Assembly: GCF_024298765.1 (NCBI RefSeq)
Contig: NZ_CP101211.1
From: Escherichia coli
GTDB lineage: Bacteria > Pseudomonadota > Gammaproteobacteria > Enterobacterales > Enterobacteriaceae
DNA length: 64,000 nucleotides
Direction: 5' to 3' (one strand)
Positions 1 through 3,000 of this stretch are shown here, in pieces. Numbering within the stretch: position 1 is the stretch's first letter; every line of letters begins with the position of its first letter. Made by a program: the position numbers.

Positions 1-3000
1 GAACCCTCTCAAGCCGCTATATGAAAGACGGATCTGAAATTCTTATTGATCGGGGCTGGTCTCATGAACTGGGAGAAACTGATTTCCATAACACATACAA
101 CATGGACCGTCGGCCACGCATGCTAACGCCACGTGAATGCAGCAGGCTAATGGGCTTCGATAAACCCGGGGAAAGTGTTTTCCGTATCCCTGTGTCCAAT
201 ACACAGGCTTACAGACAGTTTGGGAACTCCGTGGTCGTTGATGTCTTTGCGGCCGTCGCCAAACTGCTGAAGTCACGAATTGAATTTGCAGCCTCCCAGC
301 GCTTGCGGCAGTTTTACGACGAAGTCAGCTGACCTGAGCTCCTTCATCAATTTAAATGCTTAAGATTGTTGTAATAATGTCAGAGGTCAACCATGACGTA
401 TTTCGAATCAGCTGAAGGTGAGACGGTATCTAAAGAACGAGCATTACAAGAACTGTCCAGGCATTGCGTTCCCGAAACAGATTTCGAAGAATTCTTTAGC
501 GACATGGGCGTAAAGGAACAGTATGACGCTCAGGAAGTGTTGCTCTGGTTGGGATATTAAACTTCCTGTTTAGGAGACTACTATGAGCCAAAAATTCGCA
601 GTGATGATTGCTTACGACGACGATCCAAACGTCAAAAGGTATTCACCTGACTTTCAAACGCAGGATGAGTTTGCTAAAGGGTGGCAGTCGGCTCTTAAAA
701 AGGCACACCACACCTCAGGTCAAAAATCAGTCATCACCTGCGGATGTCGTGGAAAAGGAGAAAAGCGACTTTATGTTCGTGCTTTACCGAACGGTGATGC
801 CTTTATTCTCGTCAAAGCCGCTAACACGGGCATTGAGCATGATCCTTCCTGTGTATTCTTCTCCCTTGATGCCCGGCATACCGGCCTGAAAGGATATGCG
901 AGTGGTGTGGTCCGGATTACAACCGAAGGTGATATGGCTGTAAGGCTCGGTATCGGTATGACAGAGAAAGATCCTCCTGAAAAATCAGAAGTGCCTCCCC
1001 TGCCCCATGTTCAGCGACCAGAAGGAGGTCAGGCCTCAATGACCCTCCTGGGCTTGCTTAGTCTTTTGTGGACAGAGTCTGGTCTGAATGTCTGGTACCC
1101 GAAAATGGCAGGGAAACGTAACGATTCACTGGTACGGTATCGTCTGCTTGAAACCGCTAAACAAATTCGTACCGGCAGAGCCTGCATAGGTGACCATTTA
1201 TTCATTGGTGTACCTGACCCGAAACAACCTGTCGCTCAGTCGCAAATTCAGCGTCTTTCATCACAGGCGATGAGTGATAAACGTCTCATGCTCCTGTCAG
1301 TTTTACCTCGCTACGATGCTGAAAAGCATGAGAAGCCACTTAAATTTTTACCCCTGCGGAATTTTGGGGGGCTACCGCTGATTTTTTTCAATTCAGAAGT
1401 CCATTGGGATAGCGTAAAGAAACGATTTTCATCGGAGTACGCAGCATGGAAATCCGGGGCGAAAATAGTTGTCTTTGCGTTGACGTCACCAGCTGCGGTA
1501 ACCGGCAGAGGCCCTTCTGTAAGAGCTCATCAAATTGTGCTGATGCACGTTAGCGAGAACTGGATACCTCTGGACTCCTCCTATGAGGCGGTTGTTGCAG
1601 AAAAGCTGGATGCAGAGCACCGGCAGTACGTTAAGCCCATGCGTTATGATGCGAGTATTAGTGAGGTGTTCCCTGACTTCTACCTGCTCGACACAAAAAG
1701 CGATAAGCCGTTCCCGATGGAAGTATTTGGTATGGCCACTCCTGCTTATCTGGCCCGAAAGCAACTCAAAAAAGATTATTACAACCGTGAATATGGGCCT
1801 TATGGATGGTGGCACTGGGATGCGACCACAGCATCTGAAACTATGGTGCTGCCTCATTTTCCAGAATCACGCAAACCTCTTTCAACTGACACACCTGCTT
1901 AAAATGGAGAAAAAATGTCCTACATGCTTTCGCTAAGCGAACAGACAAAACTGAACGCTTTCCTGTCAGGGATCCTAGATGATTACAAGACTGGGGTTAT
2001 CACTCAGATACAAGCTGTTGGTAGAATCGGTAACGTGTTTTCTGCTCTGGAAAGTGGAGACTCAAAAAAGGTAGTGCATTTGTTGACTGAAGGACGAAAA
2101 CTCCTGCGGACGGGCTGAATGTCCGCAGAAGTTCTTATGTGCCAGGGGATGCAGAGAAGTGTATCAACCTGGCTTCATTTATCATGATGTTTTTCTGCTA
2201 CGCGGCTGTTTTGACTTTCCAGTACCTCCCCCTGCCATTGCACCAGTTAATGTATCAATGGTGCCTTTTAGGGATTCTGAGATTGTTTTCTCCGCCTCCA
2301 GGGTAGCTTCCAGCTTCATTACTTTGGCCTGGAGCGTTTTGAGTTCATTGCTTTGTTCAGCCACTTCCGCTTCATAGCCCTGGCTGACCAAAGTTACTTT
2401 ATTCAGGTCGGCGCTCAGCGACTCGTTTAGTTTATGGAGTTCAGTAAGCTCGGCATTCACCGCCACCAGGTCACCCTCTTTCCCGGACAGTGCACTTTTC
2501 AGCTCAGTACAAAGGTTCTGTGCAGCAATCAATTCCTGTTCAAACCTGTCCCTCTCTGCCTTTGTATCTGACACAGTCTGACTTAACTGGTCGCATTGTC
2601 TGGAAAGACCGGCGTTATCAGAACGCTGCGTGTTGATCTCTTCGTTCAGCTTTTTTTGATATTCAAGGTGACCAGCGATCTCTGTTTTACGTTCAGCCAG
2701 TTGCTGGGAGAGTGAGTCATTTGACTGCTGTGCGAGGCTCAATTCATGCCGTGTGCTATCTAACTGGTGATGGCAGGTTTCGAGTTCTGCTTCGGCAACA
2801 TTCAGCCTTGTTTCTAACTCCTTGACGGTACTGTCCCGGATCTCTAATCGACCCTGTAGTGCCTGATTCTCAAGTTTCAGCTCATCCATATCGGTAGCGC
2901 TTTGCTCAAGCCGCTGTAACAGCTGCGTTACCTCCTCCTCCAGCTGCATGCTACGTGCTTCAGCTTTTTTAACACTATCATTCTGTATTGCGGTATAGCT

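What the first reader, a model, noticed from the sequence alone, without database searches (positions are those of the whole stretch)
393..2118. Uncharacterised genes adjacent to the cytosine methyltransferase
A 55-aa ORF, a 439-aa ORF and a 67-aa ORF follow the methyltransferase on the same strand with short spacers. None resembles a family I can name. Methyltransferase-linked unknown genes on plasmids are sometimes restriction, anti-restriction or defence components. A second unassigned pair lies at 4845-5948.
Basis: inference. Interest (0 to 1): 0.3.

Follow-up and report, generated by a model that had tools for sequence, protein, structure and literature searches.

The report
IncHI plasmid Bax1-like nuclease operon
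These three genes are conserved backbone genes of IncHI multidrug-resistance plasmids: a zinc-binding protein that ends in a Bax1-type DNA-cutting domain, flanked by two tiny genes, one of which also occurs as the first early gene of some phages. They are untested in the laboratory, but they are not a restriction enzyme paired with the neighbouring methylase.

Summary
The three ORFs exist exactly as described, and all are real genes. The window starts in the IncHI2 plasmid backbone; the stretch is 100% identical in hundreds of E. coli, Salmonella and Enterobacter plasmids.

- **439-aa protein.** It has a name: Pfam DUF1173 (E 4.6e-39). It has an invariant CxC…Hx3C zinc site, an N-terminal domain with no structural relative, an OB-like middle and a C-terminal PD-(D/E)XK domain. 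I show this domain is homologous to the Bax1/DUF790 nuclease domain. E335, D365 and E380 match the metal-binding triad of Bax1, one residue of which was proven essential by mutation.
- **Context.** DUF1173 is a large family (about 2,500 clusters at 50% identity) on conjugative plasmids and islands. It has no conserved partner gene. The methyltransferase link is confined to IncHI-like plasmids and survives methyltransferase loss, so it is not a restriction-modification pair.
- **orf55.** A small acidic protein (phrog_25588) that also occurs alone on other conjugative elements and as the first early gene of Phimunavirus phages.
- **orf67.** Conserved and coding, but unannotated in RefSeq IncHI2 records.
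- **Second pair.** An orphan ORF plus a DUF6884/DpdC-like protein.

Best reading: a stand-alone structure-specific DNA endonuclease carried as establishment or DNA-metabolism cargo. Its biological role is unproven. Interest is moderate.

The parts
21..332 (+). 3' end (last 103 codons) of the orphan Dcm-type C-5 cytosine methyltransferase. The full gene is 475 aa in identical plasmids (WP_000833382).
   Evidence: Pfam PF00145 E 2.4e-14. The full-length copy in L001 matches PF00145 at 3.8e-75 plus DNA_meth_N. Annotation.
351..378 (+). Weak sigma-70-like promoter match (TTTAAA-16-AATAAT, with TG) between dcm and orf55. A possible internal promoter; unproven.
   Evidence: Consensus scan. The region has fewer such matches than shuffled sequence, so this is not evidence on its own.
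393..560 (+). orf55: a small acidic protein (pI 4.2, 13 D/E) of family phrog_25588. Conserved motif SAEG…H…FF…G…YDxQ…LxWxGY.
   Evidence: It occurs alone on Acinetobacter and Xenorhabdus conjugative elements. It is gp02, the first rightward gene of Pectobacterium phage Nobby.
583..1902 (+). DUF1173 family protein, 439 aa (WP_000078514).
   Evidence: Pfam PF06666 E 4.6e-39. AlphaFold2 model with pLDDT 88.6 and pTM 0.89. About 2,520 family representatives at 50% identity.
739..852 (+). Zinc-binding motif C53-x-C55…H86-x3-C90 inside the N-terminal domain.
1534..1842 (+). Bax1/DUF790-type (VRR-Nuc-like) PD-(D/E)XK nuclease domain, aa 318-420. Putative metal-binding triad: E335 (nt 1585-1587), D365 (1675-1677), E380 (1720-1722).
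1915..2118 (+). orf67: a small basic protein (pI 9.2). A real gene that is missing from RefSeq IncHI2 annotation.
   Evidence: not annotated in IncHI2. (70% aa identity in Photorhabdus). (codon-position bias 15/14/41). (1,834 plasmid records). (annotated in IncHI1 as WP_000323423).
2104..2128 (.). Hairpin overlapping the orf67 stop codon, between the convergent operons. A likely bidirectional terminator.
   Evidence: Scan. Folding energy -18.5 kcal/mol, z -3.2. Hairpins at the same position but with different sequences occur in Photorhabdus and IncHI1 (z -4.2 and -3.5).
2182..3474 (-). Coiled-coil protein, 430 aa by longest ORF and annotated as 401 aa. It is convergent with the orf55-DUF1173 operon and co-conserved with it in IncHI-like plasmids.
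   Evidence: Only coiled-coil-type matches were found. Conserved at 26-45% identity in L011-L015, L065, L066 and L071.
3384..4214 (-). DUF4942 domain protein, 276 aa.
   Evidence: Pfam PF13708 E 2.8e-26. phrog_38825 E 2e-100. DUF4942/YdiA families are enriched in plasmid leading regions (PMC11541004 supplement).
4845..5225 (+). orf126: no family assignment. Not consistently linked to the downstream gene.
   Evidence: No hits. Present at 96.8% identity in L013, but not conserved upstream of the IncHI1 homologue.
5283..5948 (+). DUF6884/DpdC-like protein, 221 aa, with CxxxK (C13…K17) and (L/I)SAxxG (ISAGMG) motifs. An orphan: no DpdA or DpdB in the 6-kb stretch.
   Evidence: PADLOC DpdC model PDLC02818 E 4.1e-59. 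Pfam PF21818 at 30.4 bits against a cut-off of 30. Motifs as described in PMC11701544. DpdC chemistry from PMC10164549.

Best explanation
The segment is the tail of a four-gene operon on the IncHI plasmid backbone: dcm, orf55, DUF1173 and orf67, ending at a hairpin.

**Molecular function of the main protein (inferred).** DUF1173 is most likely a stand-alone, metal-dependent, structure-specific DNA endonuclease. A zinc-stabilised N-terminal module and an OB-like middle domain would bind DNA, probably single-stranded or branched DNA. The C-terminal Bax1-type domain (E335, D365, E380) would cut near a junction between single- and double-stranded DNA.

**What it is not.** It is neither the restriction partner nor the repair partner of the adjacent methyltransferase.

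**Biological role (inferred).** It is one of a pool of independently mobile DNA-metabolism or establishment cargo genes that conjugative elements carry. The pool includes orphan methyltransferases, SNase, H-NS, umuDC, DUF4942 and small acidic early proteins.

**Shown versus inferred.**
- Shown: operon anatomy, family membership, fold, homology of the catalytic residues to Bax1, and absence of a conserved partner.
- Inferred: nuclease activity, substrate type and biological role.
For: **Operon.** Same strand, spacers of 12-60 nt, ribosome-binding sites, and a terminal hairpin conserved in position across three lineages.

**Backbone status.** 100% identical in 500 or more plasmid records. The same module is present in IncHI1, in Photorhabdus and in metagenomic IncHI-like plasmids with DUF1173 at 52-82% identity.

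**Family and fold.**
- PF06666 E 4.6e-39.
- Model with pLDDT 88.6.

**Bax1 link.**
- Pfam DUF790 hits 32 of 42 fragments, best E 1.2e-5.
- The only PDB sequences hit by the domain profile are Bax1 chains. The motifs align as DSSYE/DSTLE, FPDF/IPDF, EVFG/EIAG and YLARK..K/YLRKKAEK.
- hhalign gives 82.6% probability, P 9.7e-6.
- Triad spacing is E-30-D-15-E in DUF1173 and E-30-D-13-E in Bax1.

**Conservation in 178 members.** C53, C55, H86 and C90 are 99-100% conserved. E335 is 96%, D365 85%, D370 97%, E380 87%, K351 99% and K396 87%.

**No partner gene.** No neighbouring gene family occurs in more than 4 of 36 non-redundant neighbourhoods. Several loci are monocistronic.

**Mobile-element cargo.**
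- 3,315 plasmid records carry a homologue, and 73% of them are conjugative.
- In a Pantoea F-like plasmid the gene sits in a textbook leading region next to ardA-ssb-parB-psiB-psiA-oriT-traM.
- It recurs near umuDC, SNase, H-NS, DUF4942 and resolvase genes.
Against: - No biochemical or genetic data exist for any DUF1173 protein. The literature search found two papers, neither experimental.
- The sequence link to Bax1 is marginal for any single comparison: PDB E 0.14-1.1, and 13.3 bits for the window protein against a DUF790 cut-off of 28.8.
- The canonical lysine of the (D/E)xK motif is replaced by F382. Bax1 also lacks it.
- About 13-15% of family members, including distant actinobacterial ones, have lost D365 or E380. 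A 2010 analysis judged the family to lack an active-site signature.
- I could not inspect model coordinates, so clustering of the triad in three dimensions is not verified.
- In IncHI1 the module lies about 40 kb from the putative oriT, so calling it a leading-region gene is not established for IncHI.
- Immediate neighbours are mostly ORFans, so the context gives no specific pathway.
Confidence: 0.5

Rival explanations
1. Catalytically inert DNA-binding protein. DUF1173 would keep a nuclease-like fold only as a DNA-recognition scaffold and act as a regulator, nucleoid-type factor or partition accessory factor of the plasmid.
For: - The 2010 SVM and profile study concluded that DUF1173 lacks the PD-(D/E)XK signature.
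- The (D/E)xK lysine position is F, Y or W in the family.
- Distant members lose D365 and E380 but keep the zinc site and K351.
- The gene recurs beside parA, resolvase and H-NS genes.
Against: - E335, D365, D370 and E380 are 85-97% conserved across 178 diverse members.
- They map onto the Bax1 triad, one residue of which (AfBax1 D305) was shown essential by mutation.
- Bax1 is an active nuclease although it also lacks the lysine.
Confidence: 0.2
2. Conflict effector. The nuclease would be a weapon or counter-weapon of the plasmid. It might cut incoming rival single-stranded DNA (other plasmids, ssDNA phages) or cut branched intermediates made by host defence, such as R-loops or D-loops. orf55 would be an early anti-defence protein.
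For: - DUF1173 sits in a true leading region next to ardA, ssb and psiB in Pantoea.
- The IncHI module also holds an orphan methyltransferase and DUF4942, both leading-region-enriched families.
- The PADLOC defence candidate PDC-S68 shares the C-terminal domain (E 8e-5).
- orf55 is the first early gene of Phimunavirus phages and lies near ArdB/KlcA in Xenorhabdus.
Against: - Leading-region markers are near DUF1173 in only a few of the 36 groups: SSB in 3, ParB_N in 5, PsiA in 2.
- DUF1173 is nearly absent from phages.
- There are no hits to known defence or anti-defence models.
- In IncHI1 the module is about 40 kb from the putative oriT.
Confidence: 0.2
3. Vsr-like repair partner of Dcm. DUF1173 would nick T:G mismatches created by deamination of 5-methylcytosine, as E. 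coli Vsr does downstream of dcm.
For: - The gene lies downstream of a Dcm-type methyltransferase in one operon.
- Both have a PDF motif and a zinc site.
Against: - There is no Pfam Vsr hit, even at E of 10 or below.
- The Vsr histidines (FxHGCFWH) are absent; the equivalent stretch reads EVFGM.
- Only 3 of 36 neighbourhoods have a C5 methyltransferase.
- DUF1173 is kept intact where Dcm is truncated (L011) or split by an insertion sequence (L066).
- The sequence signal points to Bax1, not Vsr.
Confidence: 0.06
4. Type II restriction endonuclease cognate to the adjacent methyltransferase, with orf55 as a controller protein.
For: A methyltransferase and a PD-(D/E)XK-fold protein sit in one operon with a small intervening ORF.
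Against: - The methyltransferase link is confined to IncHI-like plasmids.
- DUF1173 stands alone in Klebsiella, Pseudomonas, Pantoea, Massilia and Acinetobacter.
- It remains intact when Dcm is truncated or interrupted.
- orf55 is acidic, has no helix-turn-helix match, and occurs without either neighbour.
Confidence: 0.03
5. Selfish homing-type endonuclease gene that spreads among mobile elements on its own.
For: - It is a single gene with highly variable neighbours.
- There is fold similarity to the homing endonuclease I-Bth0305I.
Against: - It stays syntenic within the IncHI backbone across 52-82% protein divergence.
- It is under purifying selection: 190 synonymous against 86 non-synonymous codon differences.
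- It is not embedded in introns, inteins or host genes.
Confidence: 0.03

Closest known systems
DUF1173 (Pfam PF06666), as analysed by Laganeckas, Margelevicius and Venclovas 2010 (PMC3045609)
   Same: The window protein is a full-length member. It has the N-terminal CxCxnHx3-5C zinc motif, a C-terminal PD-(D/E)XK-like domain, a length of about 400 aa, and a distant link to DUF790.
   Different: That study judged the family to lack an active-site signature. Here the E…D…E triad is 85-96% conserved and aligns residue for residue with the Bax1 triad, which was characterised later. Only the (D/E)xK lysine is missing.
Bax1 (DUF790), the nuclease partner of archaeal and bacterial XPB helicase (PDB 6P66, 6P4W; PMC7293015)
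   Same: The nuclease domain is homologous. The motifs DS..E, PDF, E-x-(A/F)-G and Y-L-x-(R/K)-K-x-x-K are shared, the acidic-residue spacing is the same, and both lack the canonical lysine. Bax1 cuts at junctions between single- and double-stranded DNA.
   Different: DUF1173 has no Bax1 N-terminal XPB-binding domain and no Cas2-like domain. It has an unrelated zinc domain and an OB-like domain instead. There is no XPB or other helicase neighbour. It is carried on mobile elements rather than in repair loci.
VRR-Nuc / FAN1-type and Hjc-type PD-(D/E)XK nucleases
   Different: VRR-Nuc proteins are about 90-aa single-domain proteins with an ExK lysine. There is no sequence-level match.
E. coli dcm-vsr operon
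   Different: The Vsr catalytic histidines are absent, there is no Vsr Pfam match, DUF1173 is three times larger, and the linkage to a methyltransferase is not conserved outside IncHI.
Leading-region and establishment gene sets of conjugative plasmids (Samuel and Burstein 2024, PMC11541004)
   Same: The neighbourhood combines an orphan methyltransferase and DUF4942. One DUF1173 homologue lies between an HNH gene and ardA-ssb-parB-psiB-psiA next to oriT.
   Different: DUF1173 is not mentioned in that study's text or held supplements. In IncHI1 the module is about 40 kb from the putative oriT. Early expression is untested.
DpdC of the Dpd 7-deazaguanine system (for the 221-aa protein at 5283-5948)
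   Same: Strong match to a PADLOC DpdC model (E 4e-59). The DUF6884 CxxxK and LSAxxG motifs are present.
   Different: It is shorter than that model (221 aa against 319 positions). It is an orphan, with no DpdA or DpdB next to it. Its substrate is unknown.

Membership tests
DUF1173 (PF06666) | Pfam HMM score above the gathering threshold | tested here: met
   134.8 bits against a cut-off of 25; E 4.6e-39; residues 26-393.
DUF1173 (PF06666) | N-terminal zinc motif CxCxnHx3-5C | tested here: met
   C53, C55, H86 and C90 are invariant in A1 and 99-100% conserved in 178 members. Metal binding itself was not tested.
DUF1173 (PF06666) | C-terminal PD-(D/E)XK-like fold | tested here: met
Bax1 / DUF790 nuclease | Nuclease domain with the E…D…E metal-binding triad | tested here: met
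   The alignment to AfBax1 maps E335 to E274/275, D365 to D305 and E380 to E318. Pfam DUF790 hits 32 of 42 fragments, best E 1.2e-5. hhalign gives 82.6%.
Bax1 / DUF790 nuclease | Whole-protein DUF790 score above the Pfam gathering threshold | tested here: not met
   The window fragment scores 13.3 bits against a cut-off of 28.8. The full-length protein gives no DUF790 hit at E of 1 or below.
Bax1 / DUF790 nuclease | N-terminal XPB-binding domain and Cas2-like domain | tested here: not met
Bax1 / DUF790 nuclease | Adjacent XPB-type helicase gene | tested here: not met
   There is no helicase family among the neighbours at positions ±4 across 36 groups, apart from a single UvrD. None is present in the window module.
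Type II restriction-modification pair | Endonuclease and cognate methyltransferase co-occur across homologues | tested here: not met
   A C5 methyltransferase is near DUF1173 in 3 of 36 groups, all IncHI-like.
Type II restriction-modification pair | The endonuclease is not kept intact without a functional methyltransferase | tested here: not met
   Dcm is truncated to 145 aa in L011 and split by an IS3-family element in L066, while DUF1173 stays intact.
Vsr endonuclease | Vsr sequence family match and catalytic Asp plus His residues | tested here: not met
Leading-region (early-entry) plasmid gene | Position next to oriT on the side transferred first, same orientation as ssb and psiB | tested here: inconclusive
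   Met for the Pantoea F-like homologue. In IncHI1 the module is about 40 kb from the mobI-upstream region where oriT is expected, on the side away from the relaxase. The IncHI oriT and transfer polarity are taken from general knowledge and were not tested.
Leading-region (early-entry) plasmid gene | Early expression from single-strand promoters after transfer | not testable with these tools
   Needs transcriptomics of fresh transconjugants.
Known anti-restriction proteins (ArdA, ArdB/KlcA, ArdC, Ocr), considered for orf55 | Sequence family match | tested here: not met
   No Pfam, NCBIfam or PADLOC hit. The only match is phrog_25588, of unknown function.
DpdC / DUF6884, considered for the 221-aa protein | HMM match and the CxxxK plus LSAxxG motifs | tested here: met
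   PADLOC PDLC02818 E 4.1e-59. PF21818 at 30.4 bits against a cut-off of 30. C13…K17 and ISAGMG are read from the translation, following PMC11701544.
DpdC / DUF6884, considered for the 221-aa protein | Companion dpdA and dpdB genes | tested here: not met
   Absent from window 1-6000 and from the IncHI1, JGI and Klebsiella neighbourhoods. The rest of the replicon was not scanned.

The most novel reading that the evidence does not exclude
DUF1173 would be a previously unrecognised, widespread class of stand-alone Bax1-type structure-specific nucleases that conjugative elements use during or after entry. One possibility is that it processes or protects the incoming single strand. Another is that it destroys the branched or single-stranded DNA intermediates of rival plasmids, phages or host defence.

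orf55 (phrog_25588) would be a new early anti-defence or host-takeover protein shared between conjugative plasmids and the first-injected genes of T7-like phages.
Probability: 0.15. Interest if true: 0.7.

Novelty: new member of a known kind. Interest (0 to 1): 0.4.

Why it matters
IncHI1 and IncHI2 plasmids are major carriers of mcr, ESBL and other resistance genes. This module is part of their conserved backbone and has no assigned function.

- **DUF1173.** Homologues sit on about 4.6% of sequenced plasmids (3,315 of 72,556), so a function assigned here would annotate thousands of genes. The work turns "hypothetical protein" into a concrete hypothesis: a Bax1-type, E/D/E-dependent, structure-specific nuclease with a zinc module. 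A few mutants and standard branched-DNA substrates could test it.
- **orf55.** The link to phage early genes offers a cheap candidate for anti-defence screening.
- **orf67.** This result flags a conserved gene that current RefSeq annotation of IncHI2 plasmids misses.

If the nuclease proves important for establishment or for competition between plasmids, it would be a target for limiting the spread of these plasmids.

Tried and rejected
1. **Foldseek against PDB with the full model.** Nothing significant; best E 0.03.
2. **Full-length profile against PDB sequences.** Only a spurious L22 hit. The Bax1 signal appeared only with the isolated C-terminal domain.
4. **Search for a conserved partner gene.** I used BLAST clustering of neighbours at ±6 genes over 36 non-redundant groups, Pfam on ±2 and ±3-4 neighbours, and seed searches for SSB, PsiB, ArdA, ParB, UmuC, SNase and others. 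No family exceeded 4-5 groups.
5. **Immunity- or antitoxin-type role for orf55.** Rejected as a general rule. Ten of 33 loci have a divergent upstream gene and several are monocistronic. orf55 also occurs without DUF1173.
6. **Restriction-modification and Vsr readings.** Rejected, as set out under the rival explanations.
7. **Defence-system models (PADLOC).** Only a weak domain hit to PDC-S68. The LmuB and JetC hits to the neighbouring coiled-coil protein are matches to low-complexity coiled coil.
8. **Rfam on 1-6500.** Only a sub-threshold hammerhead match (22 bits against 52), taken as chance.
9. **Repeats.** Nothing relevant apart from a small palindrome.
10. **Bax1 family alignment from the public protein database.** The fragment query found no candidates. 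The first genome scan with alignment A1 failed for lack of a conserved stretch and was repeated with A2.
11. **Locating oriT upstream in an IncHI2 record.** That region was resistance-gene insertions, so IncHI1 was used instead.
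Full report
**1. Observation.**
The + strand of window 1-2130 carries four features:
- the last 103 codons of a C-5 cytosine methyltransferase (21-332);
- a 55-aa ORF (393-560);
- a 439-aa ORF (583-1902);
- a 67-aa ORF (1915-2118).

The spacers are 60, 22 and 12 nt, and each start codon is preceded by a GAGG or GGAG. A stable hairpin overlaps the orf67 stop codon (2104-2128; -18.5 kcal/mol, z -3.2). It separates this unit from a convergent pair on the minus strand.

**2. Where this is.**
The first 6 kb are 100% identical to hundreds of 200-300-kb conjugative IncHI2 plasmids of E. coli, Salmonella and Enterobacter. In all, 1,185 records match and 500 of them cover at least 80% of the query. RefSeq annotates the following:
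- the methyltransferase (475 aa, with a Dcm-type N-terminal domain);
- a hypothetical 55-aa protein;
- a "DUF1173 family protein";
- on the other strand, a coiled-coil protein and a DUF4942 protein;
- two further "hypothetical" genes at 4845-5948.

An IS1 element and sul3 follow. orf67 is not annotated in IncHI2 records.

**3. The module is old backbone, and all three ORFs are genes.**
The same order recurs in several lineages: SNase (divergent) | dcm - small ORF - DUF1173 - [orf67] | coiled-coil - DUF4942. It is seen in IncHI1, a Photorhabdus plasmid, metagenomic IncHI-like contigs and further E. coli plasmids. DUF1173 identity in these ranges from 52 to 82%.
- **orf55.** It is 40-62% identical across these lineages, with invariant SAEG, FF, YDxQ and WxGY positions. 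It always ends 22-27 nt before DUF1173.
- **orf67.** It keeps 67 codons in Photorhabdus and IncHI1 (70% and 60% aa identity). Nucleotide differences concentrate at third codon positions, 15/14/41. In two lineages it is replaced by unrelated genes.
- **Terminator.** Hairpins follow orf67 in all three lineages that have it, with different sequences. This supports a conserved operon end.

**4. What the 439-aa protein is.**
It matches Pfam DUF1173 at E 4.6e-39. The family is large: a profile search of 1.84 billion representatives finds 2,520 clusters at E of 1e-3 or below. Nearly all of the 150 best hits listed are single-architecture proteins of about 400-450 aa.

The only analysis in the searchable literature is from 2010. 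It noted a CxCxnHx3-5C zinc motif and a C-terminal PD-(D/E)XK-like domain "lacking the active site signature", with weak links to DUF790 and DUF1064.

An AlphaFold2 model is confident (pLDDT 88.6, pTM 0.89).
- Foldseek finds nothing in the PDB.

**5. The C-terminal domain is a Bax1-type nuclease domain with its catalytic residues.**
I isolated residues 318-420 from 42 homologues. Four results link this domain to Bax1.
- Pfam DUF790, the Bax1 family, is hit by 32 of the 42 fragments, with a best E of 1.2e-5. No other nuclease family appears.
- A profile of the domain searched against all 177,635 distinct PDB sequences returns four sequences. Three are deposited as Bax1. The fourth (8gy8_A) is deposited as an IF-2 homologue but shows the same motifs in the alignment. 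E-values are 0.14-1.1.
- The alignment is consistent motif by motif: DSSYE335 with DSTLE, FPD365F with IPD305F, PME380VFGM with YIE318IAGF, and TPAY389LARKQLK396 with TDEYLRKKAEK.
- hhalign of the domain alignment against three Bax1 fragments gives 82.6% probability and P 9.7e-6.

In the Bax1 structure paper, E275, D305 and E318 form the metal site and superpose on E5, D36 and E50 of VRR-Nuc. D305A (or SsBax1 D301A) abolishes cutting by the nuclease domain. The enzyme incises at junctions between single- and double-stranded DNA in bubbles and overhangs (PMC7293015).

Spacing is E-30-D-15-E in DUF1173 and E-30-D-13-E in Bax1. Both proteins lack the classical lysine of (D/E)xK.

Conservation across 178 diverse DUF1173 members is as follows:

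| Residue | Conservation |
|---|---|
| Zinc ligands C53, C55, H86, C90 | 99-100% |
| K351 | 99% |
| D370 | 97% |
| E335 | 96% |
| E380 | 87% |
| K396 | 87% |
| D365 | 85% |

The 2010 verdict of "no active site" therefore needs revising: the acidic triad is there. A minority of distant members have lost it. The window protein has every one of these residues.

**6. Context: a stand-alone cargo gene, not a methyltransferase partner.**
I collected 55 loci, using encoding-contig look-ups and a scan of 100,044 species genomes. At 85% identity they reduce to 36 non-redundant DUF1173 groups.
- No neighbouring gene family within ±6 genes occurs in more than 4 groups.
- Pfam scans of 259 neighbours show mostly ORFans. 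Recurring families are few: PLD-like nucleases (6 proteins), SNase (4), C5 methyltransferase (3, all IncHI-like), DUF4942 (3), and integrases, resolvases and transposases.
- Ten of 33 loci have a divergent upstream gene, and several are monocistronic.
- The methyltransferase is absent from the Klebsiella IncHI1B-type arrangement, where SNase is directly divergent from DUF1173. It is truncated to 145 aa in Photorhabdus and split by an IS3-family element in E. coli. DUF1173 stays intact in every case.

These facts exclude a cognate restriction enzyme and make a Vsr-like, Dcm-dependent role unlikely.

By tblastn, DUF1173 is on 3,315 of 72,556 plasmids, 73% of them conjugative. It is essentially absent from phages.

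One homologue sits in a textbook F-like leading region: HNH | DUF1173-ardA-ssb-DUF905-parB-psiB-psiA…SLT-oriT-traM. Others lie beside umuDC, SNase, H-NS, DUF4942, resolvase, parA or toxin-antitoxin genes in unrelated Acinetobacter, Pseudomonas and Enterobacter plasmids.

In IncHI1 the module is on the side of the expected oriT (upstream of mobI) that faces away from the relaxase. It lies about 40 kb away, roughly half of which is Tn10 and other inserts. In Photorhabdus it is about 9 kb beyond trhG. Leading-region status for IncHI is therefore plausible but not shown.

**7. The small genes.**
- **orf55.** It is acidic (pI 4.2) and matches phrog_25588 (E 1.8e-24). It exists without DUF1173 or Dcm on an Acinetobacter conjugative plasmid and on Xenorhabdus elements, near ArdB/KlcA and RadC in one of the two Xenorhabdus contigs. 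In 32 Pectobacterium Phimunavirus (Autographiviridae) phages it is 54.5% identical. In phage Nobby it is gp02 at 796-954, the first rightward gene at the left end of the genome. In T7-like phages that position holds early genes, such as the anti-restriction gene ocr; this is my own knowledge and was not tested here. orf55 is thus a candidate early-acting protein shared by plasmids and phages. No known anti-defence family matches it.
- **orf67.** It is basic. Relatives occur in 1,834 plasmid records, including Klebsiella IncF/IncR plasmids at 41.5% identity, where it follows a resolvase next to parAB. Its function is unknown.

**8. The second pair.**
- The 221-aa protein matches a PADLOC DpdC model at E 4.1e-59 and Pfam DUF6884 just above threshold.
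- It carries the CxxxK and (L/I)SAxxG motifs that define DUF6884, a YaaA-like family of putative base-flipping DNA-binding proteins (PMC11701544).
- DpdC converts preQ0-DNA to ADG-DNA (PMC10164549), but no dpdA or dpdB is nearby, so this copy is an orphan of unknown substrate.
- orf126 has no family and is not a constant partner.
- This pair is 97-100% identical in a metagenomic plasmid whose DUF1173 is only 61% identical, which points to recent exchange of the module.

**9. Mechanism and verdict.**
- **Shown:** the operon anatomy; family membership; the zinc motif; the Bax1-type domain with conserved triad; independence from the methyltransferase and from any partner gene; residence on conjugative elements.
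- **Inferred:** DUF1173 is an active, metal-dependent, structure-specific endonuclease. Its zinc and OB-like domains position single-stranded or branched DNA. It serves plasmid DNA processing, repair or establishment, or conflict between mobile elements.
- **Confidence:** about 0.5 for the molecular function, with the biological role open.

The finding concerns ordinary, already annotated backbone genes. It nevertheless yields a concrete testable function for a family present on about 4.6% of plasmids, a phage-plasmid early-gene candidate, and a missed gene. Interest is 0.4. Novelty: a new member of a known kind.

Noticed in passing
window 393-560; L073 (phage Nobby NC_048061) 796-954: orf55 belongs to phrog_25588. 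At 54.5% identity it is the first rightward early gene (gp02) of 32 Pectobacterium Phimunavirus phages. It also occurs alone on Acinetobacter and Xenorhabdus conjugative elements.
   Followed up: partly
window 1915-2118: orf67 is a conserved gene under purifying selection that RefSeq/PGAP leaves unannotated in IncHI2 records. Its IncHI1 homologue is annotated (WP_000323423).
   Followed up: yes
window 5283-5948 (and 4845-5225): An orphan DUF6884/DpdC-like protein with intact CxxxK and ISAGMG motifs and no dpdA or dpdB nearby. With orf126 it is 97-100% identical in JGI contig L013, whose DUF1173 is only 61% identical, so the pair was exchanged recently between backbones.
   Followed up: partly
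L011 9137-9574; L066 3192-5870: The Dcm gene is truncated to 145 aa in the Photorhabdus plasmid. In an E. coli IncHI-like plasmid it is split by an IS3-family insertion. orf55 and DUF1173 remain intact in both.
   Followed up: yes
plasmid hits H139-H144 (K. pneumoniae plasmids of 150-340 kb): In many large K. pneumoniae plasmids the DUF1173 homologue is annotated as two CDS and matched in two pieces. This suggests a frameshifted or split gene in that lineage.
   Followed up: no
L075 (A. baumannii pAba3207b), L076 (P. aeruginosa pNCGM3814_2), L077 (Enterobacter pJBIWA007_1), L074 (IncHI1): DUF1173 recurs within a few kb of umuDC or Y-family polymerase genes, and near SNase, H-NS, DUF4942, resolvase, parA and toxin-antitoxin genes, in unrelated plasmids. 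UmuC lies within 10 kb in only 3 of 36 genome-derived groups, so the association is suggestive but not established.
   Followed up: partly
window 4547-4577: A 14-nt inverted repeat with a 3-nt spacer (TAGTCACTAGTAAA / TTAACTAGTGACTA) lies in the AT-rich (38% GC) divergent intergenic region between DUF4942 and orf126. It resembles an operator.
   Followed up: no
window 2182-3474 (minus strand): The start of the coiled-coil gene is ambiguous. The longest ORF gives 430 aa and overlaps DUF4942 by 91 nt. RefSeq uses a 401-aa version that overlaps by 4 nt. Its hits to SMC, LmuB and JetC models cover only coiled-coil regions.
   Followed up: partly
window 5992-7702: An IS1 element (insA/insB) and the sulfonamide-resistance gene sul3 abut the backbone module directly. 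This marks the edge of a resistance insertion.
   Followed up: no
window 4125-4189: A sub-threshold Rfam match to Hammerhead_HH9 (22.1 bits against a gathering score of 52, E 0.06) falls inside the DUF4942 coding region. It is most likely chance.
   Followed up: no
window 583-1902: The window's DUF1173 is identical to WP_000078514. It differs from the representative of its 90%-identity cluster (P0001, 1,039 member sequences) at two residues (V273/G, D436/G).
   Followed up: yes
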